Program-made: the position numbers and the translations under genes
The notes under the pieces: model-generated
Told to the model about the DNA's origin: nothing
The model's database searches: none
The model's input: the letters and a program-made list of their open reading frames with translations, nothing else
Assembly: GCA_963739235.1 (NCBI GenBank)
Contig: CAVTZY010000033.1
Span: 232,226 to 296,225 of the forward strand
Source: Terriglobia bacterium
GTDB taxonomy: Bacteria; Acidobacteriota; UBA6911
Reading direction: 5' to 3'
DNA: 64,000 nt
In this document: positions 48,399-63,042 of the stretch, piece after piece
How the letters are laid out: each line of letters opens with the position of its first letter
Numbering within the stretch: position 1 is the stretch's first letter

Positions 48399-50314
48399 CA
48401 CTAAGCGCCTGCGCAAAAATAACTTCACATTCTGCGGAGCAACTATCCCAAAGGTCGTTTACGCATCTTGATCGTCTATGGGCATCAAATGGCCATTTAT
48501 CAATAAATTTATGAGATGGTTGGGAATCATGGGTGTGGTATAATTCGTCCTGGTAGACTCTTTTCAGGAGGAACTATACCACATGGTATTTGATCCGAAT
48601 GTCCTTCGATCCTTCCTGCATCAAGAGAGGATTGCCACGCTCCCGGAGCTGAAGCAAGCTTTGGGAAGCATGGCTACCATGACCGTGTTTCGAAAGCTCA
48701 AGGCGTTAGGCTACCGCACGAGCTATTCGCACCGCGGGAGATACTACACGCTGGTGAACATTCCCCGGTTCGACGAGCGAGGTCTCTGGACTTGCCGCGC
48801 CGTATGGTTTTCGCGCGACGGCAGCCTGCTCACCACCGCCCGGCGGTTTGTGAACGATTCCGATGCTGGGCTTACCGCCGGGGAATTGCAGGCGCTACTG
48901 AATGTCGAGGTCAAGGAATCGCTTCTGGTGCTGTACCGTCGAGGGCAAATTGCCCGCGAGGAAATCGGCGGCGTCCTTGTGCACTTTTCTACTGAGCCTG
49001 GGGTACGGCGCGAGCAATGGCTGCGCCGCCAGAGTCCGGCGGGTGCGCTGGAGGTGGGCGACTCGGCGGCGGGCGAAGGGCTGGCGCCGGAAATGAAGGC
49101 CGCGATCATTCTGTTTTTCAGCTTGCTGGATGAGAAACAGAGGCGGGTGTATGCGGGCTTGGAGGCCCAGAAGCTCGGATACGGCGGCGATATCAAGATT
49201 GCGGACTTTCTGGGGTTGGACGTGCACACAGTGTCGCGTGGGCGCCGGGAGCTCTTTGGAGACCGTGTCCAGCGGGAAAGGATTCGCCGTCAGGGCGGTG
49301 GGCGCCCGGCTGCGGAAAAAAAACGCCGGAAGTGCTCGCATGCATTTCGGACCTGCTCAAACACGAAACGGCTGGCGATCCGATGAAGGGTCTGAAGTGG
49401 ACCCGAAGGACAACCAGGAAAATCGCTCGAGAACTGCGTCGGCTGCAGATCCGTGTTAGTGCCAACACGGTGCGCCGGTTGTTGAAGCGGATGGGGTTCT
49501 CCTTGCGCGTGAACCACAAGAGACTGGAGTCAGGGAACAAGAATCCGCCGCCCCGCCGGGTACGAAACCAGCAGTTTTTATACATCGGCCGGAAAAGGGA
49601 GGAGTTCTCCTCCAACGGAAAGCCTGTCATCAGCGTGGACGCGAAAAAGAAGGAGATGGTCGGGGCCTTCAAGAATCCCGGGGTGTCGTGGCAACGCGAA
49701 CCGCAGATCGTCAACGACCACGACTTCCGCAGCGATGCCGAGGGGATGGCGATTCCCTATGGCATCTACGATACGCGGACCAATCATGGTTTCGTGGTGG
49801 TCGGGACCAGCACCGAAACGCCCGCCTTCGCAGTGGACGCAATCGTTTCCTGGTGGAAAAGTCGGGGCGGCAGTATCTATCCTGATGCAGATGAACTCCT
49901 GATCTTGGCAGACTGTGGCGGCGGCAACAGCGCCCGTGCGCGTGGATGGAAGTATCACCTGCAACACCGGTTCTGCAATCCTTACGGGCTGAAGGTGACC
50001 GTCTGTCATTATCCGCCTGGCGCATCAAAATGGAATCCGATCGAGCACCGCCTGTTTTCCCAGATTAGCAAGAACTGGGCAGGCAAGCCGCTGGAAAGCT
50101 ATGAGACTGTGATCAAGTATATTCACTCGACTACTACCTCGGGCGGATTGAAGGTCAACGCCTGGTTGTCACTGAAGCGTTATGAAAAGGGCGAAGAGAT
50201 CTCCAACGTAGAGATGAAGCGGCTCATGCTTGCCGGCCACAAGACGCTACCGGCATGGAATTACACGTTGACGCCGAGCAGAATGTGAAGTTATTTTTGC
50301 GCAGGCGCTAAGTG
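48399..50314 (+). mobile_element. ISAzo13-family insertion sequence (1,916 bp)
   Basis: 34-bp terminal inverted repeats with 1 mismatch. They are 48399-48432 'cactaagcgcctgcgcaaaaataacttcacattc' and 50281-50314 'gaatgtgaagttatttttgcgcaggcgctaagtg', and they enclose the transposase. Confidence 0.85.
48583..50288 (+). CDS. ISAzo13-family DDE transposase, in two overlapping ORFs joined by a -1 shift at the A8 run (49316-49323)
   Basis: ORF1 ends '...RRQGGGRPAAEKK'. The -1 frame continues 'TPEVLACISDLLKHETAGDPMKGLKWTRRTTRKIA...', with 'VISVDAKKKE', 'LILADCGGGN' and 'KWNPIEHRLFS' typical of this family. Confidence 0.8.
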
Positions 50315-51330
50315 ATCAATCTCGGGAACTTCAATTTCACGTCTCAACTCATGCCTCCAAATACTAAGAGCCCTGGGAGACCCCAAAACTTACCTCGAGG
50401 ACACAAGTCTTTTTCTGCAGCTGTGGTGCTGAGTGACGAGGAGAAAGCTAGCTCGAGAACAGTTGCGGGCATCCGCGTGTTTTTATTCTCTTATCTGCCG
50501 CGGCTTCTGTGGACCACCGCGAGCCGTTGGCAGTAGAGAAACCTGCCGCGAAACTTCTGGATATATTAGTTGCAGTTTTTCGAACTTTGTAACATCGACC
50601 TCAAAATATTTTTTCCACGCACAATCCGTGACTCCCCTGGATTGCTGCAGAGTAGCCCGATTTGGTAGCAACTACGCTTGGGATCTGTCGGCCATTCGTC
50701 CAGGGAATCCTACCACCGGGCTAAGATTCACGATTTATGATCCTGGCTGCGGCAACCAAGAGCGACTCTGCTTGCCTCGTTGATCCCATGAGAAACCGAG
50801 ATGAAATCCAGGGCTTGGGATGAACTACTTGTCCATCAGGGCCATGCTACAACTCGCTCTAATCGGGTCCACCCATTCGGCGAGTCGGCTGACGTTTCGC
50901 CGCTGGATCGTTTCTGCGCCATCGGCCCTCTTCTGTGCGACTCGCTTTGTGCCCGCAGGTATTTCCGCTTCCGGATCCAGAATTCCGACAGCGCAATTGC
51001 TCCTCCGTCGATGTAACAGAAGGAAAGCACAGGAGGGCGAAACCAGATTCCATATCCACTTAATTATTCGTCTGATGAGCCGCCCCAATAATAGATCTTC
51101 CCCCCTGGTGTACCGTCCAGCGCCGCATAGTCTTCACGACACTGTCCCCAATGGATTTCCGACAAACTGAAAATTTCGAGTAGGCGATTTCCTTTGTTTT
51201 GCGTTCTTGTGGTTAGGCCCCGATGGCCACTTGAAAATCCCCCATTTGTGGCCGGGTCAAAATCCCCCAGGCGACAGCAGGAGTATAACCTACCAACAAT
51301 CCGTATAGAGCCTCCAAGCTCATTCCTTTT

Positions 51331-52106
51331 TCATCCAGAAACTTTTTGTCGGTTTTCGGTCAGCCGGATGGACGCCTCCTTGAGACGGTAGCTCCTACCT
51401 TCGAACTTGAGCAGATGGCCGCGGTGAAGGAGTCGGTCCTGAATGGCCGACGAAGCGGCGTTGTCGCCGAGGAGTTTCCCCAATCCTCCAGGGGACGATT
51501 GGAAGTAATCAGGCTGCTTTTTCTCGAGGTGTATCGATTCAGAATAATCTCGAGTAAATCGTCGGCAGCCTGTTCCGGGACGTTCTTGCGCAGAAACAAA
51601 TCGTCGATGACCAACAGATCGCTTTCGGAGAAGAGTTTGGTCACCTTTTTTCTCCGCTTAAGTTGAGCGGATTCGAAGAGGTCTTCGAAAAAGGCATGGG
51701 CTTCGCGATACACGACTTTGTAGCCGGTCTGAATGGCGGCATGCGCCACTGTCTTTGCAATATGGCTTTTCCCGGTTCCGGGCGAGCCGATCAGCAGAGC
51801 ATCAGCGCCGTCCCGGATAAATTTGCCGCTGACCAGTTCGTAGATTTCCTTTTTGGGCAGCTTCGGATTGAAGCCCCAGTCAAATTCGGTCAAAGTGGGC
51901 CGGTCCGGGAGGCCGGAGGCTTTGAAGCGGGTTTCCACGAGGCGCGAGTTTCGCCAGTCCATTTCGTCCTGCACGAGGCAGGCAAACACCTCTACGAAAG
52001 AAGCACCCTGGTTGGCCTGAACGAGTCGGGTTTCCAGCGTGGCGCTCATGCCATGCAGGCGAACCGTTTTGAGATTTCTCTGTAATTCTGCTAACGGCAT
52101 TTCCAT
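51331..52106 (-). pseudogene. istB: IS21-family helper ATPase IstB, frameshifted near its C-terminus (about 51475-51481)
   Basis: Walker A 'GSPGTGKSHIA' and 'LLVIDDL'. After 'TSNRPLEDWG' the listed frame reads nonsense. The alternate frame gives the canonical 'KLLGDNAASSAIQDRLLHRGHLLKFEGRSYRLKEA', ending at 51331. Confidence 0.85.
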
Positions 52107-52144
52107 TAATTGGGCTCCTTATCTTCTTTTTCATCCTGTGGTTT

Positions 52145-54877
52145 TTAAAAACAGCCTTGCACGCGCAAGAGCTGAAGTTGTTCTACCGACATGTCGGCCG
52201 GGTCCTGGACCGAATCCGAGATCAGGTCCCCGGAGAGGCCCCGGTCCCAGTCAAACACGCTCACCTCGAAGTGGTTCTGCCGCAGCCGCTCGAACGCCTG
52301 ACAGGCGCCCTTTCGACCGGCCTCGTCCCGGTCCAGAAACAAAATGATTCGTGGAAACCCGATCCGGGACCGAATCCACGCCAACCGCTCGATCTGTTCC
52401 GCGGAGATGTGGGCTCCCATCAAGGCACCGACATTACAACAGCCCGCTTCCACGAGCTTGGCCACATCAAAAAAGCCCTCCACGAGAACCAGACCGAATG
52501 TCCTCGCCTGGCGGCCGGCTTCTGGATCCAGCAGGAGTTGATCCTGGTTGTAGATTTCCAGCCCTTTTCGGAACGGATAACTCCAGTATTTTCCATCCGA
52601 GTTTTCTTGTTCCGGCATCAGGGCCCGTCCGGTGTGGCTCAGGATGATCGACTGAAGACCCTGGCCATTCTCTTTCACGCCCCGGATTTGAAACACCACC
52701 CGGGAATGCAGGGGAGAGCCCGGTCCTCGGTTCGCTCTCGGGGGCAAAAAGCCGCAGCCCAGATAACGACAGGTGGCGGCAGATATGCCGCGACGGCTCA
52801 ATTCGGGATGATCGGAGTGAAGATAACGGCGCAGGTCGATCTCGATGTCGCGATTGGCAGGAGTCGTACACGTCGGGACGCTGACCGGACTTGGTTGCGG
52901 TTTTGGGTCAGGAGCAGGCGGTGTTTGCGGCATTGCCGTGCAGATTCCTTCCCCGACCATCCACTCGGCTACTTCGAACATGGTCATCTCACGGCCCTGC
53001 CGCTGCAGCACCTCCCGGCAGAACTGGATGATGCCGCCGCCCTTGCCGCTGCTGAAATCCTTGTAGACATTGGCCGACAGACTGACGTGCATCGAGGCCT
53101 GCTTTTCCTGTGTAAACGGAGATCTGAGCCAGATCTCATCATCTCGGCTGCGGCGCTGGTGGTCTACGCTGAGTTGAAACACCTCGATCACCTTCCGCCA
53201 GCTTGCCTGCTGCCAGACCTCGCGCAGTTGCTGCCGGTCAATGACCCGCGATATGGAAGCAATCGTCTTTTGGGGAATCGGCGCCGCCGGGAGTTCCGCC
53301 TGGGCGGCGTGTTGATTCCAAAAAGCGGCGTAGTCTTCCCCCGGGCGAATCAAGGCGTGCTTTTGCGTGAGACGGTCGGATTCTTCGGCTTTCCGTTCCC
53401 CGGCTTCGGCCGCCATGCTCTCCACGATCCGCCGCAAGGCTTTGAAACTTCTCAGCCCGTTGCGCTTTACCACTTCCGCCGCTTTCTCCACGTGGCAGGC
53501 CGCGTAATGTCGAACCAGATTGACCAGGCCGTACATGCGGCGTTGACCGCTGCGGCCTTCTTCCTTGAACCATGTCTCGCACAGATCGAAGGTGTGCGGA
53601 CCGATGCATTCGGCCTGTGCCAGCAAGCGGTCTGTTTCCCGGGATGGATTGAAGATCCGATCCGCGGGGTCCATCATCAGGGAACCAGGCCGCCTGCTCC
53701 TGGGATGGCGGCGGATAACCTCCATCCGGACCGGATCGAGTATCTTGACTTGATCCTCGTAGATCCGTACCACCACCTTGCTGCCGAGCGGTGCCGGACT
53801 GGCGGCATAGTAGGATTGGCCGATCTGAGTCGTCCCGTCATCGTAGACCGTCCGGGTTTCCTGCTGAAAATAGCGGAACGGCATCAGCGGCAACGGCTGC
53901 AGATAGGGTTTCTCTTCCTGGAACATCTCCTTGACCTGCCGCTTGGCCCGGCCATGGATTCGCGGCGATGCCCACCGATCCTCCCAATGCATCAACCATT
54001 CGTTCTGGGCCTCGATGCTTTCGAATTTCCGTCCCTTCAAGGCCGTGTCCTGCGTGTATTTCACCGCATTCTCCACGGTCCCTTTTCGGTCCGAATCGCC
54101 CACTCTCGCCGGATCTGCCACTACCTCGTAATGATTCAACATCGCGGCATACAGCGGATTGAGATCCGGTTCATAGATGTCCGGCTTGATCACGCCTTCC
54201 TTGAGGTTGTCCAATGTCACGTATTGCGAACAGCCCGCAAAATAGCGGAACGCTTCCTCGTGCAGCCGGCACCAGATTTCCTTGCTCGAATTCCAAACCA
54301 CCTTCCGAAAGGCCCGCCCCGAGTACTTCAAGGTCATGATGAACAGGCGCGGCCGCCGGAATTTTCCGCTGCTGTGAAGAGTTGGAGCCCCCTGCCCGTA
54401 GTCCACCTGGGCTTCTTCTCCCATCAGGAATTCCAGCCGGTCATATTGCTCGGGGTCCTTCCGTTTGAGGAGCCGCACAAACCGCTTCACGCTGTTGTAG
54501 CGGTGATTGAAACCGAACAGTTCTACCAGATCCTGGTAGATGGCCATGGCATTGCGGCCCCCTCTGACCTGCTCCTCGATCCACTCCCGGTGCGCTTCAC
54601 AGGCCGAGCGGACATGCTTGGGCATTTTGGGTTCAGGAGCCGGTGGCCGGGGTGGGGGATTTTGATTCAATGGTATCTCAGAGCCGGTGGCCACCTCCTG
54701 TGGGGTGGGGGATTGTGAATCCCCACTTTCTTGTACCTCGTCCGAATCGTACGATTGGCCATACCGGCGGATGGTTTTTCGATCGATCCCGGTCTTTCGC
54801 TGGATCTCGCGTTGACTTATCTCCTTGTGCAGCAATGTCTTGATCGTGGTTTGCAAAGACAGCTTCAAAACGTTCAT
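52145..54877 (-). CDS. istA: IS21-family transposase IstA fused to a C-terminal DnaG-like primase/Toprim module
   Basis: N-terminal HTH 'ISQREIQRKTGIDRKTIRRY' and DDE core up to '...LTQKHALIRPGEDY' (aa about 1-545 of the 924-aa ORF). A Cys-less CHC2-finger-like 'LRSPFTQEKQASMHVSLSANVYKDFSSGKGGGIIQF' follows. Primase motifs are 'VVFQIRG..SHTGRAL', 'KYWSYP' and 'GLEIYNQD'. Toprim is 'LVLVEGFFDV' plus 'LFLDRDEAGRKG'. Confidence 0.8.
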   Translation of the reverse strand: MNVLKLSLQTTIKTLLHKEISQREIQRKTGIDRKTIRRYGQSYDSDEVQESGDSQSPTPQEVATGSEIPLNQNPPPRPPAPEPKMPKHVRSACEAHREWIEEQVRGGRNAMAIYQDLVELFGFNHRYNSVKRFVRLLKRKDPEQYDRLEFLMGEEAQVDYGQGAPTLHSSGKFRRPRLFIMTLKYSGRAFRKVVWNSSKEIWCRLHEEAFRYFAGCSQYVTLDNLKEGVIKPDIYEPDLNPLYAAMLNHYEVVADPARVGDSDRKGTVENAVKYTQDTALKGRKFESIEAQNEWLMHWEDRWASPRIHGRAKRQVKEMFQEEKPYLQPLPLMPFRYFQQETRTVYDDGTTQIGQSYYAASPAPLGSKVVVRIYEDQVKILDPVRMEVIRRHPRSRRPGSLMMDPADRIFNPSRETDRLLAQAECIGPHTFDLCETWFKEEGRSGQRRMYGLVNLVRHYAACHVEKAAEVVKRNGLRSFKALRRIVESMAAEAGERKAEESDRLTQKHALIRPGEDYAAFWNQHAAQAELPAAPIPQKTIASISRVIDRQQLREVWQQASWRKVIEVFQLSVDHQRRSRDDEIWLRSPFTQEKQASMHVSLSANVYKDFSSGKGGGIIQFCREVLQRQGREMTMFEVAEWMVGEGICTAMPQTPPAPDPKPQPSPVSVPTCTTPANRDIEIDLRRYLHSDHPELSRRGISAATCRYLGCGFLPPRANRGPGSPLHSRVVFQIRGVKENGQGLQSIILSHTGRALMPEQENSDGKYWSYPFRKGLEIYNQDQLLLDPEAGRQARTFGLVLVEGFFDVAKLVEAGCCNVGALMGAHISAEQIERLAWIRSRIGFPRIILFLDRDEAGRKGACQAFERLRQNHFEVSVFDWDRGLSGDLISDSVQDPADMSVEQLQLLRVQGCF

Positions 54878-55069
54878 CCTCTCTCTCCCATTTGTGAACG
54901 GACCAATGGGAGCATGCACGTTCTGTCGCCGTCTGCAGCGATGTTTATCGCGAAATCTGTGCAGCTAAGTGGGGGATTTTCAAGTGGCCACAAGTGGGGG
55001 ATTTTGGGTGGCCATCAGGGTTAGGGGAACATTTTGCAGCTACTCATCTTGATCGGAGGCGAGGGCTCT

Positions 55070-55354
55070 ATGAAAACCACTCGCTTTTCTCGATCTGGTT
55101 TTTTCATCAGTACCCAGGATTCTGAACGAGAGTTGATAAATATTTGGCTTTCCACATCCAGAGAAGAGCGCAAACAGAAGTTTGCCGGCACGGCACGAGC
55201 GGCTGAAATTGCCGGAGTGTCGCAGCGAACCGTGCAATTCTGGATTGATTCAGGGTATTTGGCTTCATTGCGCATTGGCAAAAAGTATCAGATTTACCTT
55301 CCTTCGCTGATTGAGCACCTTTTCCCCCGGGCCGGTTGCAGGTGGGTCGAGTAG
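55070..55354 (+). CDS. excisionase/MerR-like helix-turn-helix DNA-binding protein
   Basis: 'GTARAAEIAGVSQRTVQFWIDSGYLASLRIGKKYQIYLPSLIEHL'. Starts 39 nt from the IS21-like right end. Confidence 0.6.
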   Translation: MKTTRFSRSGFFISTQDSERELINIWLSTSREERKQKFAGTARAAEIAGVSQRTVQFWIDSGYLASLRIGKKYQIYLPSLIEHLFPRAGCRWVE

Positions 55355-56197: not shown

Positions 56198-56496
56198 GAT
56201 AGTACGCCATAACATATTCTAGCTATTGATAATCAGGCATTGTGCGCAATTCACGAAATTCACGTATTTGGCGAAATTCGCGCAGTTGGCGCAGTACGCG
56301 CTAGACAAATAAAGAATGCATGTTAGAAAAATCTCATCATGCTTGGCCGAGTACGAGAAGACGCATTGGCTTCTAACGCATTCTCAGCCAGAGCCGTAGA
56401 TTGCTGATCTGAGTTCTTCATGAAATCGCTGGCTGCTGTCGGCATATATCGCGTTCATTGACTTGTACCTCCTTGGAACGTTACCGGAGAAAACGT

Positions 56497-57042
56497 ATGA
56501 ACCTCAAAAGCATTTATCTCAAATCCAAGGGCACGCTTTGGCCGCTGGTTGCCCTTCTTTTGCTGTTTACCATTGCGTTGGCGCTGGCTCAGACGCCGGA
56601 CAAAAAGGCGACACCGATGATCACCATCGATGGTTCGCAGACTCCGGACCGGATCCCGGACTGGATCCTGTGGAGCGAAGTATTCAAGACCGTGTCATTG
56701 CTATCGGACAAATTCGCGACGAAGGGCGATGACATTTGGGTGCAGAAGCTCCAACTCTCCAGGGAGCAGGCTAACCAACTCATCCAGCATGCCGGGACAC
56801 ATCGCGCCATGAATTCCGCAAAAAATGTGGAAGCGAGAAATCTCAAAGCCTCAACGAAAGAGAGCAAGGAATCGCTGCGCATCAAGCTGAAACAAGCCCA
56901 AATGAACAAGGAAGTCCAGATTCTCGAACTTCGCGATGCGCTTCGTGCGCGGATAGGTGAGGACGCATTCCAAAGGCTCCAATCTTACGCGAAGCTGAAT
57001 ATTGCGCCCACGATCAAGGTCGGCGCCATGGTCAGAAAATGA
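56497..57042 (+). CDS. secreted hypothetical protein upstream of the RHS gene
   Basis: Signal 'MNLKSIYLKSKGTLWPLVALLLLFTIALALAQ'. The remainder is helical and charged. No family recognised. Confidence 0.55.
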   Translation: MNLKSIYLKSKGTLWPLVALLLLFTIALALAQTPDKKATPMITIDGSQTPDRIPDWILWSEVFKTVSLLSDKFATKGDDIWVQKLQLSREQANQLIQHAGTHRAMNSAKNVEARNLKASTKESKESLRIKLKQAQMNKEVQILELRDALRARIGEDAFQRLQSYAKLNIAPTIKVGAMVRK

Positions 57043-57125
57043 GCGGGACCAGCCACGAGCATCACTGAACTGGAAACCAGCGGAAGGAGCATTAGTCCTA
57101 GCGTGAAATCCGGAGGAAATTGCTT

Positions 57126-60100
57126 ATGAAGCCGAAGATCTCGATTGGGGCGAATTCAGCAAGAATGATTTGGGCCGTTGGCCTAGGTTTTCTCTGCCTT
57201 TTGTCATTCATGCAAAGGGCATCCTATCCGAACGAAATCGTGGTTGAAGGAAAATACCATTTTCGGTCCGCGATTTGGGAGCAGTACGGAGCCGTCGTCG
57301 CCACAAGCAGCACTGACATTGACTACGATGCGCAGTACCAAAGCGCGAATATTGATCTGCTACTCGACCGGCCCGATGGTCCCGATGATGAGCAGCATGT
57401 TTGTAACGGCAGCTGCGAGGGCGTGAACATTGTAATCGTCGATCCTCTTATGTTTGGCACCTGGAATCTCCATGCGGATCATTGGATTGGCGATGAGTGC
57501 GGCGGGGATATGTGGATTTATGGAACTACTTCCGCGACCTTCACCAGAGCACAAACATCCATCAATTACTTCTATGCCAGCCCAAGCCATTATCTATACC
57601 CCGGATCGACCACGCTGTACTGGTCGACGACCAACGGATCAAACGCCTGGATCAATGGGACGGCCGTAGCTCTTTCCGGCAGTATGGTGGTCAGCCCTGG
57701 GATGACGACAACATATACGCTCTCCGTGTACGGCACCCTGAATACTGCTACCGCCACTGCTGCGGTCGGGGTCGACAAGCCTCTGTTAATGAATGGATAC
57801 CGCTATTCCGTGCGCCATGAAAAGGGCACGCCGCCGTTCTTCCCCTATACGCAGGTCAATCAGGAATCTGTAAACGTCGCCAACGGCAACCTCTTCTTTA
57901 CGGTGCCGCTCTTGAGCCGCCCGGGACGCAACGGCCTGGGTGTTGATCTGAAGCTTGCCTACAACTCCAAGCTCTGGGATTTCTATACTTGGAACGCCGC
58001 GATCTACGCCACCTTAGTTGAGGATAGTTCCTGGGTGGGCACCGGTTGGACACTGCTGGTCGGGAGAGTCATTGACGACTCGTCCAACGGGCGCTACTAC
58101 GTCACCCTTTCCGATGGATCCAACCACGAAATGACCTATTACGGAGGAGCATGGCGATCGATGGATTCAACCTACATGATTTACGATCCCGTCGTCCACA
58201 AACTGACTCTAAAGGGCGGCATAAACCTTCGTTTCGATTACCAGGATTCGGTGCGCACTAACATGCGGTTCGCCACGCGAGTCCAGGACACCAACGGCAA
58301 TTATCTCGAAATCGCCTATGGCAGTGGCGGAGGGCGCATCAGCACAATCCAGGATACGCTCGGGAACACCTACACCTTTTTGCTGAATTCCCAGGGAAGG
58401 CTGGCGTACATATCCTATTTTAACACCAACGACACAACCCAGCCGACGAGCACGATCGCTCTCGAGTATGATAGCCAGGCGATCTCTTTCGGCCCGGAGG
58501 CAGTGACTGCCTCCATGCCGGCGCAGGAATTCCTCGCGCATGTGACGTACATCAGCGGCGTCCGTTATAATCTCGTGTACGGAGGCAGCGGCGAACTCAG
58601 CGAAATAACCTACCCCACATTCGGGACCAGCCGCTATTTTTATAGCACCTACAACGTGTTGGAGCGCTTTCTCAACCAGACGGTCCCGGATCACTATGTC
58701 AGCAGTCACGACACGGGGGAGGGCACTGGAATATGGAGTTGGAACAACAGCCCGAATGGCCTGGCGGCGGCAGTTGGCGCGTCCATAACGGACCCGGGCA
58801 ATCAAAACAACTGGTACTACATCGCTGTCTTTATGGGCAAAGCAGGCGCAAGCTGGGCCGATGGATTTGTAACGAATCGAGTGACCGAAGACCTCTACGC
58901 TTACTACCGCCTGAAACTCGAATCCCAGCAAGACTGGACACAGGACGATACCCAGATCTCGACCATCAAGAATCCCAGGGTGGCCTGGACTCAGCACGTA
59001 GCCACAGGTGGGGCTTTACGGCCGGATGCGCAAACGATCAGCCGGAAGGAGTTCACCTACGCCCCTGCCGCTGACTACAGCGGGAATGTTAAGGAGATCA
59101 GAGAGTACGCTTGGAACGGCAGTCTGCGGCGCAAATCGACATTTAACTACCTCCACGAATCCAATGGCGCCTATGTTCCCTTGAACATCCTCGACAGGGC
59201 GACCGACGCGCTTATCTATGATGGCTCCAACCACCTGATCTCCAAAAGCCTGACCGCGTACGATTCAGTCTCGCCGCTTTATGCTGCTGCGGGAGCCATT
59301 CGCCATGATTCGTCTTTCGATACGAATTATGTGGCCAGAGGACTGCCTACGAGCATTACCCGATGGCACAATATCGCTCAGAACCAGTCTGTTGTGTCTT
59401 CAGTCAGATATGACGAATGCGGAAATGCGCGAGAGGCGACGGATCCCCGGTCTAACGTGACCTTCACGGAGTTCTGGCTTTCGTCGGCCGATAACGCTTA
59501 CGCGTTTCTGCTCCGGGTAACCAACGCCAAGGGGCACGTTGCCAGCGCATCCTTCAGTTACAAGAGCGGCGCGGTGCTCAGCCAAACGGATACAAACGGA
59601 AAAGGCACATACACGACGTATGACAGCCTCGACCGCCCAACGGCAATCAACAAGACGGACGGGCCAAGCAAGGCCATTACATACTACGAGGATCCCGAAT
59701 ACCAGACACCCCCTTATGCAATGATCTGGGATTACCTGACAGCCAATACCTTTTCCACGCATTTCGCCGTGCTCGACAACATGGGGCGCCTGCAGCAACA
59801 GATTCTGAGTGATACCTCGGGTGGCGACATTCAACGGGAACTGACTTATAACCCGCGCGGCGACCTTTCGCAGGTATCCGCTCCGCATCGGGCTGGCGCC
59901 ATCGCGTTTCAAACCAGCTATACTTACCTGCAGCCGTCCAGTCAAGCCGTTACCTATGCTGATGGATCGACGGATTGTATCAGTCGAGCACCGGCACTGA
60001 CCCAGGTAATGAGACTCCAAAAACGGAACACGCAACTTTTGGTACCAGGAAGACGGCAAGATCAATACCGTGCAACTGGAGGATCCGGATACTGGGGTAG

Positions 60101-63042
60101 TTAATGTGGGGACAAGCTATATCTACGATGCCATGGGCAGATTGGCCACGATCACCCAAGGGGTTCAGGTTCGGTCCTTTGCCTATGACGATCTGGGCCG
60201 GCTCTTGACGGAGACTCATCCGGAAACCGGCACGACCAGTTACGGCTATGACGCCAACGGAAACATGCTCAGCAGGACGGACGCGCGCGGAACCGTGACG
60301 ACGTTCGCCTACGATGAGCTCAACCGCGTGACGCAGAAGAGCTATAGCGACGGAACCCCTTCGGTGAGCTACTACTATGATTCTCAGCCGTCCGGAAGCC
60401 CGATTGCAGCGATCAATCCGGTGGGCCGGCTGACCAAGGTGACAAGAACCGTATCGGGAGTGACGGCGAGCACCTATTACAGCTACTGCAGCTGCTCCGC
60501 GATCACCCAGGAGGCGACGGTAATCAATGACGGCACGGCGAAAACCTACATAACGAGCTACAGCTATAACCTGGCCGGGCAGTTGACGTCGATAACCTAC
60601 CCAAATGGGAAGGTTGTGAGCTACACGCTCGACGATGCGGGACGGCAGATCAATGCATCGTCGACCTACAACGGCCAACCCTTTGATTATATCTACTCGG
60701 CGTACTATGGGGGGCCGGCGGGCCAGATTACCCGGCTGCAGTACCCGATCAGGTATCCTTACCCTAACGGGCAGCGAGTGGAGGCGAACTACACATATGC
60801 GCCGCAGTCAGGGCAGCTGATACATATGGAGTCCTACCAGCTGAGCCTGAACTACGGTTATGTATCCGGGCGAATTTACGACATTACGGATCTTCTCAAT
60901 CAGAACGAAAGTCAGCACTTCGAGTACGACCGCTGGTGGCGGCTAACGGGCTATTGGAAGTCTCCGTCCCGAGGCTACAGCGGCGCCAAGATGCATTTCA
61001 GCTACGACCTCTACAACAACCTCACCGGCATGGACGCCTATGGCGTGCCCTGGACATTCAACGTCAACGTCGCCACCAACCGCGTCTCCAGCAGAACTAT
61101 TTGGAGTTCAAACGATTCCTTTACCTATGATTCTGCCGGTAACATGACGAGCATGGGCACCTTTGACGCCGAAAATCGCCTAATTCAGACTGCGCAAGGT
61201 GCCGGTTACCTGTACGACGGCAACGGACGGCGCTTCCGCACGAACGATGGAAACGTGGTAAACTATGTCTATTCCTACACGGGCCAGCTGCTGATGGAGG
61301 ACAGGGTTTCCGAATCGTTGTCGAGTAATTACATCTACTTCAATGGGCAGATGGTGGCGATTCATCAGCAGGACGAGACCATTCGCTTCTTGATCAAGGA
61401 TCATCTCGGGTCCACGCGCAAGGTGATTAGCGTCCCACTGTTCCCATATGAAACTTGGCAGTACAACTGGTACAACTGGTCCCTGACCAAGAGCTACGAT
61501 TATGAACCTTTCGGGGGATCGTTGTCCTCGAGCGGGCCGACCCGACAACGGTTTCAGGGGAAGGATCGGAGCGGCGGCTTGGATTATTACGGCGCTAGAT
61601 TCTACGACAGCAGAAACATCCAGGCTCCTCCTTACGGCACCATGCGCTGGATCTCGGCCGATTCCTTGACGTCTCGCATCTACGATCCCCCATCCCTGAA
61701 CAAATACACCTACGTCAGAAACGACCCCGTCAACCTCATCGACCCGGATGGAAGAAACGTAGCAGCTCCAAATGGCTACGCTCCGCCGGGTTTGTTGTTT
61801 GAGTTTGACTGGGAAATATTTAGTCCCACTGCCGTCATATCGGGCGGGGAAGGTGAGATTACCGGCTTGAATATTGGTCTATCCTCGGAACCAGGCGACG
61901 ATATTGGTAGCCCCGATATTCTGGGGACCGTGTTCAACGTTCATGAGTTCAAGCGGGACGACGGTTCGACGGGCAAGGTCATGAGCGTCATACTGGCCGA
62001 CGAAACCGGGACCGTCAGGACATCGTTCTGGGGCAACGCCGTCGAACTCGCGAAGAAGTTTTCAATCGGCGACATCGTTTCCATCCACAACGCATACACC
62101 CGCGCGGGATTGGCGAGCAAGCCGGAGGTCCAAATCGGGCGCTCCACTAGCATCGACATAAATCCGGCTGGCATCTCCGTCGGCGAGCTGAAGCCGAGCA
62201 GGATAAAGATCGGCGAGCTCGAGGTCGGCATGGACGCGCTCGAGGTGGTCGGCAGGGTGATAGAGGTATCGAGGGCGAGGGAGTTCACGCGCACCGACGG
62301 CAGCAAGGGAAAGGTCGCGACCCTCGGGATAGGCGACGAGACGGGGACGACGCGGCTCTCGCTCTGGCAGGATGCCGTCGATAAAGCTGAAAAAATAAAA
62401 GTCGGGGACATCATCAAAGCGACGAATTGCTACGGCGCCCTCGGATTGTACGGCCAGCCCGAGCTGCACCTTGGGAGGCAGGGGAGCATCGATGTGAACC
62501 CGTCGATGGAGGGAGAACTGCCGCGGGCCGACGTGCTGTCGATGGCGATCGCCGCCCCGGAGCGCATAGAAATAGGGGCGCTCGAGAAGGAGGGCCTCAA
62601 GGTCCAGGTGCGCGGCACGATAGTCAGGGTCTTTCAGAGGAGGCCGCTCTTCGATGTCTGCCCGCTGTGCGGCCGCAGCCTCGGCAGCGTCGACCACAGC
62701 CTCCTGTGCGAGGAGTGCGGCAAAGTGGTCACGCCCGAGCATCGGGTCGTCGTGAGCTTCCTGGTCGAGGATGGCACCGGAAACATCAGGGCCGTGCTCT
62801 TCGGAAAGGTCGCGGAGAAATTGCTCGGCATGGACGCGCAGCAGGTGTTCGGACTCTTCAAACAGACCCCCGACGTCATCGAGCTCTACAACAAGCTCAA
62901 CATATTGGGCAAGGAGGTCACGATCACCGGGACCACGCGCTACGACAAGTACTTCAACCAGCTCGAGATCAGGGCGAGCGATGTCGAGATCCCGGAGCCG
63001 AAACAGGAGGCGCGCGCGCTGTTGGAAAAAATAAAAGCATGA
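57126..63042 (+). pseudogene. RHS/YD-repeat protein (about 1,970 aa) split into two ORFs by a +1 shift at or near the A5 run 60019-60023
   Basis: GGAGGA RBS before the ATG at 57126 and an N-terminal signal or TM segment. Many YD repeats ('YTYDSLDRP', 'YIYDAMGRL', 'FAYDDLGRL', 'YGYDANGNM'). RHS core end 'YYGARFYDS...NKYTYVRNDPVNLIDPDG' (DPDG at 61741-61752). Frame 1 reads 'SKNGTRNFWYQEDGKINTVQLEDPDTG' from 60016. Confidence 0.85.
61915..63039 (+). other. archaeal-type replication protein A (RPA)-like module in frame with the RHS core: three OB folds, the third with a Zn ribbon
   Basis: OB signatures 'FKRDDGSTGKVMSVILADETGTVRTSFWGNAV' and 'FTRTDGSKGKVATLGIGDETGTTRLSLWQDAV'. Zn ribbon 'CPLCGRSLGSVDHSLLCEECG' (62659-62718). 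Third OB 'FLVEDGTGNIRAVLFGKVAE'. Confidence 0.75.

What the first reader, a model, noticed from the sequence alone, without database searches (positions are those of the whole stretch)
52148..53287. IS21-family IstA transposase carries a C-terminal DnaG-like primase/Toprim extension
IstA proteins normally end near the 'LTQ.H.LIR' region, which is aa about 520-530 here. This ORF continues uninterrupted for about 380 more residues.

- A CHC2-zinc-finger-like segment has all Cys/His replaced ('RSPFTQEKQASMHVSLSANVYKDFSSGKGGG').
- DnaG catalytic-core-like motifs follow ('KYWSYP', 'GLEIYNQD').
- A Toprim domain follows ('LVEGFFDV' plus 'DRDEAG').

The module lies inside the IS, between the IstA core and istB. 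A transposase-linked primase suggests priming of replicative or repair synthesis during transposition. I do not know of this being described for IS21.
Basis: partly seen in the sequence, partly recalled or inferred. Interest (0 to 1): 0.75.

Follow-up and report, generated by a model that had tools for sequence, protein, structure and literature searches.

The report
IS21 transposase fused to a primase
An active family of IS21 insertion sequences has captured a plasmid-type DnaG primase and fused it to the transposase, which suggests these elements prime their own DNA synthesis during transposition, something not previously reported for this kind of mobile element.

Summary
ORF 52145..54919 (-) encodes an IS21 IstA transposase (aa 1 to about 540) that continues without a stop into about 370 residues of DnaG-type primase. 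This part has a zinc-ribbon fold with all four Zn ligands replaced (S600, T603, D621, S624), a Pro-rich linker, and the primase RNA-polymerase domain with Toprim. The primase motifs are intact (R765, K777, Y778, K785, E814, D818, D863, D865, D906, D909). There is no helicase-binding domain.

Profile hits are significant. An AlphaFold model (pLDDT 84) matches Aquifex DnaG ZBD+RPD best (E 5e-15).

The fusion is not an artefact. It occurs in more than 120 protein clusters and in 38 intact genomic loci from several phyla. Copies are 99.7-100% identical within genomes and have 4-8 bp target duplications. dN/dS on the extension is about 0.05-0.2.

The same module also occurs as a separate third gene after istB in a very distant IS21 lineage. 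All IS21-linked modules form one clade nested among standalone primases, some of which are found on mobilisable plasmids.

The likely role, which is inferred, is transposase-tethered priming of the proposed copy-out replication step. No prior description was found. In the window copy, istB carries a homopolymer frameshift.

The parts
51219..55020 (-). Complete IS21-family element (3802 bp): fused istA-primase gene plus istB
   Evidence: The limits are set by a 99.87%-identical second copy (L096) whose homology starts exactly at 55020 and whose flank differs. They are also set by the divergence point from L001 at the istB end.
54967..55020 (.). Terminal inverted repeat, istA-proximal end, holding two TGGCCAC-N3/4-AAAATCCCCCA subterminal repeats (presumed IstA-binding sites)
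   Evidence: (I1, I2, I5). The 21-mer occurs exactly twice in the window, once at each end, against 0.01 expected by chance.
51219..51269 (.). Terminal inverted repeat, istB-proximal end, with the same two subterminal repeats
51214..51218 (.). Target-site duplication TTAGG, copy 1
   Evidence: Other copies of the family have 4-8 bp duplications.
55021..55025 (.). Target-site duplication TTAGG, copy 2
52145..54877 (-). Fused istA-primase gene: 910 aa from ATG at Met15, with the stop at 52145-52147. The longest ORF starts at GTG 54919 (924 aa). Residue numbers in this report use the 924-aa frame.
   Evidence: (P0270, 910 aa, about 100% identical).
53300..54877 (-). IstA transposase core (aa 15-540): HTH, DDE/rve domain, beta-barrel (Mu-transpos_C_2, aa 343-412) and a C-terminal helical region ending after LTQKHALIR
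   Evidence: NF033546 4.8e-72, 243 bits against a cutoff of 160. PF22483 2.5e-7. dN/dS 0.11-0.20.
52952..53236 (-). Zinc-ribbon-like domain of the primase (aa 562-656). The fold is kept but the four Zn ligands are replaced: C->S600, H->T603, C->D621, C->S624.
   Evidence: PF01807 5.4e-6. Alignment to the Aquifex DnaG zinc-binding domain. The AlphaFold model matches 1d0q with TMt 0.73. dN/dS 0.04-0.10.
52856..52951 (-). Pro-rich flexible linker between the zinc-ribbon-like domain and the catalytic domain (aa 657-688)
   Evidence: pLDDT below 50. Poorly conserved, with relaxed dN/dS.
52508..52855 (-). N-terminal subdomain of the primase RNA-polymerase domain (aa 689-804), carrying GR765A, K777-Y778, F783-x-K785 and E788-x-Y790
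   Evidence: TIGR01391 dnaG 2.8e-24. Foldseek matches to DnaG catalytic cores at about 1e-10. These residues are nearly invariant across the wide family.
52148..52507 (-). Toprim domain (aa 805-924) with E814-G-x-x-D818, D863-x-D865 and D906-P-x-D909. The protein ends here, with no helicase-binding domain.
   Evidence: Toprim_4 7.8e-10. Alignments to DnaG structures 5vaz, 4e2k and 2au3. pLDDT above 90.
51331..52106 (-). istB AAA+ helper gene. This copy has a 1-nt contraction of a G-run (+ strand CCCC at about 51478-51481) that shifts the frame at about codon 210. The called ORF ends at 51360, and the restored frame gives the family-typical 258 aa ending at 51331.
   Evidence: PF01695 4.9e-37. 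DNA alignment to L001 and translation of the alternative frame. The 97%-identical relative P0271 has an intact 258-aa IstB.

Best explanation
**What it is.** This is an autonomous IS21-family insertion sequence. Its DDE transposase IstA is fused in frame, through a short variable linker, to a two-domain DnaG-type primase. The primase consists of a zinc-less zinc-ribbon domain, a flexible linker and the RNA-polymerase/Toprim catalytic domain. It lacks the C-terminal domain that couples cellular DnaG to the DnaB helicase.

**Where the module came from.** The IS21-linked modules nest among standalone primases of about 380 aa, some of which are found on small mobilisable plasmids, so capture from such a plasmid-type primase is the likely origin. 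The tree fits a single capture. The module was later passed to at least one very different IS21 lineage, where it is a separate third gene after istB.

**Proposed mechanism (inferred, not shown).** IstA tetramers bind the repeated end sites, so the fusion places primase active sites at the transpososome. After 3'-end cleavage and strand transfer, the primase lays down RNA primers on the single-stranded or displaced template. These primers would serve the lagging strand of the copy-out replication step proposed for IS21. They would make DNA synthesis across the element, or gap filling at the target, independent of the host DnaB-DnaG primosome.
For: **Shown: domain identity**
- Profile hits to Toprim, Zn_ribbon_DnaG, TIGR dnaG and phage DNA primase families are significant.
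- PDB sequence hits are only to DnaG primases.
- The AlphaFold model has pLDDT 84.4. Its best match is Aquifex DnaG ZBD+RPD (E 4.7e-15), followed by about 20 DnaG catalytic cores, the T7 primase and the isolated DnaG zinc-binding domain. RNase M5 and RecR match only at E>7e-3.

**Shown: catalytic residues**
- The Toprim Glu, DxD and D-P-x-D motifs, and the primase-specific GR, KY and F-x-K motifs, are invariant or nearly so across the family and its plasmid relatives.

**Shown: selection**
- dN/dS is 0.04-0.10 on the zinc-ribbon part and about 0.1-0.25 on the RPD/Toprim part. This is equal to or lower than on the IstA core. Both linkers are relaxed.

**Shown: the fusion is real and the elements are active**
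- The frame is contiguous in 38 loci from Acidobacteriota, Desulfobacterota, Omnitrophota, Chloroflexota and others.
- There are more than 120 full-length clusters of 890-916 aa.
- Copies within a genome are 99.7-100% identical and have 4-8 bp target duplications.
- A second insertion site of the window's own element exists.

**Shown: an independent arrangement**
- A distant IS21 lineage (IstA 24% and IstB about 25-28% identical to the window's) carries the module as a third gene inside its inverted repeats.

**Shown: origin**
- IS21-linked modules form one clade (200/200 bootstrap) nested among standalone proteins.
- Those standalone proteins sit beside mobC-relaxase-T4CP, Rep3 and ParA genes, or beside Rep_1.

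**Context from the literature**
- A host PrimPol (IEE) already links priming to copy-out-paste-in insertion sequences (bioRxiv 10.1101/2023.06.07.543989).
Against: - No biochemical evidence for primer synthesis exists.
- The zinc ligands that cellular DnaG needs for template recognition are all lost. The helicase-binding domain is absent. The score against the DnaG equivalog model is far below its cutoff (85.8 vs 283.6 bits). The enzyme could therefore have drifted to another Toprim chemistry or to a non-catalytic role.
- Most IS21 elements transpose without any primase of their own, so the module is an accessory and not a requirement.
- Copy-out/paste-in for IS21 is itself only proposed.
- The window copy has a frameshifted istB, so this particular copy may not be autonomous, unless the frameshift is an assembly error.
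Confidence: 0.55

Rival explanations
1. The Toprim domain acts as a nuclease, not a primase. It would cleave the non-transferred 5' strand (as TnsA does for Tn7) or process flaps, turning a replicative pathway into cut-and-paste.
For: Toprim domains are the catalytic cores of OLD nucleases and RNase M5, and JGI's automatic annotation calls these proteins RNase M5. Weak structural matches to RNase M5 Toprim exist (E 7e-3 and weaker). Loss of the zinc ligands could signal loss of template-directed initiation.
Against: The whole two-domain primase architecture is conserved under strong selection, not just Toprim. This includes the zinc-ribbon fold and the primase-specific N-terminal subdomain with its GR, KY and F-x-K motifs. 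The RNase M5 model scores E 0.14. Foldseek ranks about 25 primases ahead of any nuclease, by 7 or more orders of magnitude.
Confidence: 0.1
2. The module is a non-catalytic or regulatory adaptor. It would bind ssDNA, primer-template junctions or replisome proteins, and so direct insertion to replication forks or incoming conjugative DNA, or time transposition to replication.
For: The most strongly constrained part is the zinc-less ribbon domain (dN/dS 0.04-0.10), which in DnaG contacts template DNA. The ancestry among primases found beside mobilisation genes fits a link to transferred ssDNA.
Against: All acidic metal ligands and all NTP-binding basic residues are invariant. That would not be expected for a pure binding module. 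No target bias could be examined here.
Confidence: 0.15
3. The primase is a hitch-hiking passenger whose function is unrelated to transposition, for example helping a replicon that carries the IS.
For: Its relatives occur on plasmids, and insertion sequences do sometimes carry passengers.
Against: It is translationally fused to the transposase in two sub-branches spanning about 50% sequence divergence. It is retained in a second gene order, overlapping istB, in a distant IS21 lineage. It is multicopy in chromosomes of up to 8 Mb. A passenger would not be expected to stay in frame with the transposase under this degree of constraint.
Confidence: 0.07
4. The long ORF is an assembly or sequencing artefact that joins two genes through a missed stop or frameshift.
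For: The window seems to come from an error-prone assembly: istB carries homopolymer indels here and in the sister copy.
Against: The same continuous frame is found in 38 independent loci and in more than 120 protein clusters from NCBI, JGI, ENA and Logan assemblies at 74-100% identity. The junction has no conserved start codon.
Confidence: 0.01

Closest known systems
Canonical IS21-family elements (IS21, IS5376): IstA DDE transposase plus IstB AAA+ helper
   Same: HTH-DDE-beta-barrel IstA, IstB immediately downstream, terminal inverted repeats with multiple subterminal repeats, and 4-8 bp target duplications (PMC11208146).
   Different: Canonical IstA stops after the C-terminal helical region, and an unfused distant relative here ends at 511 aa. 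This family adds about 370 residues of primase, giving a 3.7-4.35 kb element. From my own knowledge, described members are about 2-2.6 kb.
Bacterial DnaG primase, and the primase half of phage T7 gp4
   Same: The same two-domain layout of zinc-ribbon plus RPD/Toprim, conserved catalytic Glu, DxD and DPxD, and basic NTP-binding motifs. DnaG gives the best structural and sequence matches.
   Different: All four Zn ligands are replaced. There is no C-terminal helicase-binding domain and no helical subdomain after Toprim. The score is far below the DnaG equivalog cutoff. The module is tethered to a transposase and not to a helicase.
Standalone primases of about 380 aa on small mobilisable plasmids (uncharacterised environmental family: P0131, P0132, P0136 and others)
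   Same: They are the closest relatives outside the IS21-linked clade (36-38% identity; IS21 forms nest among them). They have the same length and domain order, and their zinc site is already degenerate, keeping only one Cys.
   Different: They are separate genes next to mobC-relaxase-T4CP, Rep3 and ParA, or next to Rep_1. They are not associated with IstA or IstB.
Primases fused to or paired with conjugative DNA-processing enzymes (RSF1010 MobA-RepB' fusion; IncP TraC; IncI Sog). This comparison is from my own knowledge.
   Same: A DNA-mobilisation enzyme is physically coupled to a primase, so that the mobilised DNA can be primed independently of the host.
   Different: Those partners are HUH relaxases acting on transferred ssDNA. 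Here the partner is a DDE transposase. RepB' is not a DnaG-type enzyme.
IEE, the insertion sequence excision enhancer (AEP-type PrimPol-helicase)
   Same: A primase is functionally linked to the copy-out step of insertion sequences that form circular intermediates, a group that includes IS21 (bioRxiv 10.1101/2023.06.07.543989).
   Different: IEE is host- or island-encoded and acts in trans. It belongs to the unrelated AEP superfamily and promotes excision, not transposition.
Defence reverse transcriptases with DnaG-like domains (DRT UG29, RTasDnaG-like)
   Same: Another case of a DnaG-type RPD/Toprim domain fused to a different nucleic-acid enzyme. PADLOC hits 2.5e-18 and 2.8e-9 are confined to the primase region.
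   Different: There is no reverse transcriptase here. The match is to the shared primase domain only, so this is not a defence-system member.

Membership tests
IS21 family insertion sequence | IstA-type DDE transposase (HTH + rve + beta-barrel) | tested here: met
   NF033546 gives 243 bits against a cutoff of 160, E 4.8e-72. PF22483 Mu-transpos_C_2 gives 30.7 bits against a cutoff of 27.
IS21 family insertion sequence | IstB AAA+ helper gene immediately downstream of istA | tested here: met
   PF01695 gives 128 bits, E 4.9e-37. The window copy is frameshifted at about codon 210, but relatives have an intact 258-aa IstB.
IS21 family insertion sequence | Terminal inverted repeats with multiple subterminal repeats | tested here: met
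   Inverted repeats of about 50 bp, each with two TGGCCAC..AAAATCCCCCA repeats.
IS21 family insertion sequence | Short target-site duplications (4-8 bp) and evidence of mobility | tested here: met
   TTAGG in the window. Duplications of 4-8 bp flank 99.7-100% identical copies in four genomes. A second insertion site of the window's element exists.
IS21 family insertion sequence | Conserved 5'-TG...CA-3' terminal dinucleotides | tested here: inconclusive
   The ends read CCCTGATGG... and ...CCATCAGGG. TG/CA lies 3 nt inside the boundary inferred from copy comparison. The exact cleavage position cannot be fixed from sequence alone.
Bacterial DnaG-type primase (cellular orthologue) | CHC2 zinc ribbon with Cys/His zinc ligands | tested here: not met
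   The fold is present (PF01807 5.4e-6; 1d0q TMt 0.73), but the ligands are S600, T603, D621 and S624, invariant in the family.
Bacterial DnaG-type primase (cellular orthologue) | RNA-polymerase domain: N-terminal subdomain plus Toprim with catalytic E, DxD, DPxD and basic NTP-binding motifs | tested here: met
Bacterial DnaG-type primase (cellular orthologue) | C-terminal DnaB helicase-binding domain | tested here: not met
   The protein ends about 15 residues after the last Toprim acidic motif. Neither the profile hits nor the model show such a domain.
Bacterial DnaG-type primase (cellular orthologue) | Score above the equivalog cutoff (TIGR01391) | tested here: not met
   85.8 bits against a cutoff of 283.6.
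Bacterial DnaG-type primase (cellular orthologue) | Template-dependent primer synthesis | not testable with these tools
   This needs biochemistry.
Toprim nucleases (RNase M5 / OLD) | Toprim domain in a nuclease architecture, matching the RNase M5 or OLD models | tested here: not met
   TIGR00334 RNase M5 scores E 0.14. PADLOC gives no OLD or Gabija hit. Structural hits to RNase M5 are only E>=7e-3, behind about 25 primases.
Plasmid-type standalone zinc-poor DnaG-like primases (environmental family) | Sequence clade membership and shared domain order | tested here: met
   phmmer E values of 1e-40 to 1e-64 to proteins of about 380 aa. The IS21-linked modules plus these standalone proteins group together against more distant CHC2-bearing relatives (200/200).

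The most novel reading that the evidence does not exclude
These are the first DDE-transposase insertion sequences that carry their own primase. By tethering a helicase-independent, zinc-less DnaG-type primase to the transpososome, they make the replicative copy-out step of IS21 transposition self-priming. The module is portable between distant IS21 lineages, either as a fusion or as a third gene.
Probability: 0.45. Interest if true: 0.8.

Novelty: new variant of a known kind. Interest (0 to 1): 0.72.

Why it matters
Whether IS21 uses a replicative copy-out step, and how that synthesis is primed, is still only a proposal (PMC11208146). A natural, widespread and evidently active IS21 lineage with a primase fused to its transposase gives a direct genetic and biochemical handle on that question: mutate the primase active site and look at circle formation.

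It also adds a new enzyme partnership, DDE transposase plus DnaG-type primase, to the list of ways mobile elements free themselves from host replication functions. It parallels relaxase-primase fusions of plasmids and polymerase-carrying self-synthesising transposons.

The strongly conserved zinc-less ribbon domain is of interest for primase enzymology, since it bears on how template selection could work without zinc.

Practically, these 900-aa proteins are currently annotated only as 'IS21 family transposase' or, misleadingly, as 'RNase M5'.

Tried and rejected
- **Apparent standalone or split versions among close relatives were not real alternatives.**
  - P0017 (423 aa) is the 3' remnant of a copy interrupted by a three-gene tyrosine-recombinase insertion.
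  - P0074 (381 aa) is a frameshifted copy at a single locus.
  - P0083 (IstB+Toprim) is an internal-deletion chimera.
- **Some searches returned nothing.**
  - The search for related loci failed with the broad alignment A2, which was too divergent.
  - It found nothing with P0096 alone. The narrower alignment A3 worked.
  - PLSDB plasmids hold no real relative, only one 25%-identity hit. The plasmid link therefore rests on metagenomic contigs only.
- **The tree needed three runs.** The first run timed out. The second contained two sequences extracted out of frame. The corrected run is.
- **Representatives of 405-504 aa that matched only the RPD** were checked for other fusion partners. They are ordinary zinc-ribbon + RPD primases with longer linkers.
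- **Defence-system membership was considered** because of the PADLOC hits. It was rejected because the matches cover only the primase domain shared with RT fusions.
- **A full-length structure prediction was not run.** The available alignment for the IstA part is shallow, and no inter-domain confidence measure would be returned.
Full report
**Observation**

The minus-strand ORF 52145..54919 is uninterrupted for 924 codons. It is followed 38 bp downstream by a 248-codon istB-like ORF. Public gene calls for an essentially identical protein (P0270) start at Met15, giving 910 aa and coordinates 52145..54877. Residue numbers below use the 924-aa frame. The finding's coordinates 52148..53287 correspond to aa 545-924.

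**Domain identity by sequence**

- Residues 27-344 match the NCBIfam IS21 transposase model above its cutoff (243 bits, E 4.8e-72). Residues 343-412 match the IstA/MuA beta-barrel domain.
- The extension matches four Toprim models (best is Toprim_4, E 7.8e-10) and the DnaG CHC2 zinc-ribbon model (26.6 bits against a cutoff of 24.9), all above their Pfam cutoffs.
- It also matches the TIGR dnaG model (E 2.8e-24, well below that model's orthologue cutoff) and phage DNA-primase families (phrog_47, E 1.6e-26, spanning ribbon to Toprim).
- Against PDB sequences the only hits are DnaG primases.
- The alignment to the Aquifex DnaG zinc-binding domain maps the four zinc ligands to S600, T603, D621 and S624.

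**Domain identity by structure**

An AlphaFold2 model of aa 545-924, built on a 50-sequence alignment, has mean pLDDT 84.4. Confidence is low only at the first 13 residues and in the Pro-rich linker. Foldseek results against PDB:

| Match | Score |
|---|---|
| Aquifex DnaG zinc-binding + RNA-polymerase domains (2au3) | E 4.7e-15 |
| About 20 DnaG catalytic cores | E about 1e-10 |
| T7 primase fragment (1nui) | E 3.1e-6 |
| Isolated DnaG zinc-binding domain (1d0q) | TM 0.73 on the target |
| RNase M5 and RecR Toprim domains | E 7e-3 and weaker |

The protein ends just after Toprim, so there is no helicase-binding domain.

**The fusion is real, conserved and selected**

- A genome scan with the extension found 62 loci. 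In nearly all that are long enough, the IstA core and the primase part are contiguous in one frame and are followed by istB. 38 loci have an open 870-965-codon frame.
- The hosts are Acidobacteriota, many Desulfobacterota (including the isolates NaphS2 and Desulfoferrobacter suflitae DRH4), Omnitrophota and others.
- A second sub-branch is also fused (896-926 aa). Its primase part is about 53% identical to the window type, and its hosts include Chloroflexota and Thermodesulfobacteriota MAGs.
- A search with the whole protein returned more than 120 clusters of 890-916 aa at 74-100% identity. They are named 'IS21 family transposase' (NCBI) or 'transposase/5S rRNA maturation endonuclease (ribonuclease M5)' (JGI).
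- Pairwise dN/dS values:

| Region | dN/dS |
|---|---|
| IstA core | 0.11-0.20 in most pairs |
| Zinc-ribbon-like domain | 0.04-0.10 in most pairs |
| N-terminal catalytic subdomain | about 0.1 |
| Toprim | 0.1-0.25 |
| The two linkers | 0.2-0.5 |

- The catalytic E814, D818, D863, D865, D906 and D909, and the primase-specific R765, K777, Y778, F783 and K785, are invariant or nearly so, even in relatives at 25-40% identity.

**The element is mobile**

- The window's IS runs from 51219 to 55020 (3802 bp). It has imperfect inverted repeats of about 50 bp, each carrying two TGGCCAC..AAAATCCCCCA repeats, and a TTAGG target duplication.
- A 99.87%-identical copy on another contig begins exactly at the same end and has a different flank.
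- In four other genomes, copies of 3.7-4.35 kb are 99.7-100% identical and are flanked by 4-8 bp duplications. The whole unit, primase included, has therefore transposed recently.

**A second arrangement, and the origin of the module**

- Proteins of the P0096 type (386 aa, 48-59% identical to the fused modules) are encoded as a third gene overlapping the 3' end of istB. They lie inside the inverted repeats of an IS21 element whose IstA (24% identity, 511 aa, ending at a position equivalent to about aa 530 here) and IstB (about 25-28% identity) are very distant from the window's.
- An exhaustive search of 1.8 billion representatives shows that most of the wider family consists of standalone proteins of 355-410 aa at 30-45% identity.
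- Where context was available, these standalone proteins lie next to mobC-relaxase(-T4CP), Rep3 and ParA genes, or next to a Rep_1 initiator. These are small mobilisable plasmids. Two further look-ups gave contigs too short to judge.
- In a bootstrapped NJ tree, all IS21-linked modules form one clade (200/200) nested among the standalone proteins. The window-type fusions form a clade (200/200). The third-gene forms group with the second fused sub-branch (194/200).
- The simplest reading is one capture of a plasmid-type primase by an IS21 element, followed by transfer of the module to a distant IS21 backbone.
- The zinc site decays along the same series. Canonical CxxH...CxxC is found only in the most distant relatives. 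One Cys remains in the plasmid forms. None remains in the IS21 forms.

**Mechanism**

What is shown is the anatomy, the conservation, the mobility and the ancestry. What is inferred is the activity.

- The primase-specific NTP-binding subdomain and all metal ligands are kept under strong constraint.
- The module stays physically or translationally coupled to IstA/IstB in two unrelated configurations.

From these three points, the most likely role is priming of DNA synthesis at the transpososome. That would be lagging-strand priming during copy-out, or priming for repair of the strand-transfer product. Covalent tethering to the transposase would replace the DnaB interaction that recruits cellular DnaG.

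I put this at about 0.55. The rivals are listed with their tests: a Toprim nuclease acting on the second strand, a non-catalytic targeting or regulatory module, and an unrelated passenger function. The artefact explanation is excluded.

**Comparison with what is known, and novelty**

- By every feature that could be decided from sequence, the element is a member of the IS21 family.
- The extension works like, and descends from, DnaG-type primases. It is not a DnaG orthologue: it has no zinc ligands and no helicase-binding domain, and it scores below the equivalog cutoff.
- The nearest functional analogies are relaxase-primase couplings of plasmids (my own knowledge) and the trans-acting PrimPol IEE that affects copy-out-paste-in insertion sequences.
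- Eight full-text searches combining IS21, IstA or IstB with primase, Toprim or DnaG found no description of this architecture. The library does not cover most subscription journals or ISfinder/TnPedia, so an existing note cannot be excluded.
- I classify it as a new variant of a known kind.

**State of the window copy**

istB has a one-base contraction of a G-run (about 51478-51481). This shifts the frame at about codon 210 and removes the conserved C-terminal helices. The alternative frame restores the family-typical 258-aa protein. The sister copy shares this state and has a further A-run deletion. A 97%-identical relative from a different data source has an intact IstB. The pattern looks like long-read homopolymer error, but a real lesion cannot be excluded without reads.

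Noticed in passing
window 51478-51481 (istB, minus strand): A one-base contraction of a G-run shifts the istB frame at about codon 210. The restored frame gives the 258-aa IstB seen in relatives. The sister copy L096 shares this state and has an extra A-run deletion, which suggests homopolymer assembly errors.
   Followed up: yes
window 48583-50288 (+): An ISAzo13-family DDE transposase (PF07592, E 3e-113) occupies 49332-50288. It is preceded by an overlapping 267-aa ORF in another frame with no Pfam hit. This may be the N-terminal part of the same transposase, split by a real or programmed frameshift or by an assembly error. The region is rich in insertion sequences.
   Followed up: partly
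window 55034-55354 (+): A small HTH_17/MerR-like (excisionase-type) ORF starts 9 bp beyond the target duplication. The IS therefore sits immediately upstream of it and may affect its expression.
   Followed up: no
window 57120-60104 (+): A 994-aa ORF rich in Tyr, Gly, Ser and Thr, with a signal-like N-terminus, has no Pfam hit at E<=1e-3. The 194-aa ORF before it (56458-57042) also has none.
   Followed up: partly
L063 1848-5104: One copy of the fused IS is interrupted, within its fused transposase gene, by three consecutive tyrosine-recombinase genes. This resembles a 'recombinase in trio' element. Only the primase 3' part and istB remain downstream.
   Followed up: no
L079 6081-6453; L080 6081-6691: Elements of the second fused sub-branch carry an extra small ORF between the primase stop and istB. 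It is about 65 aa, basic, and begins MRGGKRTGAGRKKK... In L080 the segment is tandemly duplicated (about 238 bp).
   Followed up: no
L008 7791-11193: In one Acidobacteriota copy, istB is interrupted after about codon 204 by an insertion of about 3.4 kb. L008 and L011 remain 99.5% identical over 7.2 kb, so a composite unit seems to have been duplicated or to have moved.
   Followed up: no
P0083 (593 aa): This is a deletion derivative in which the Toprim domain is joined in frame, just after the DxD motif, to the middle of IstB. It is a decayed copy, not a new architecture.
   Followed up: partly
L072 / L092 (plasmid-like contigs): The standalone relatives are transcribed divergently from mobC-relaxase(-T4CP) operons. 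This looks like a conserved, uncharacterised primase family of small mobilisable plasmids. It is absent from PLSDB.
   Followed up: partly
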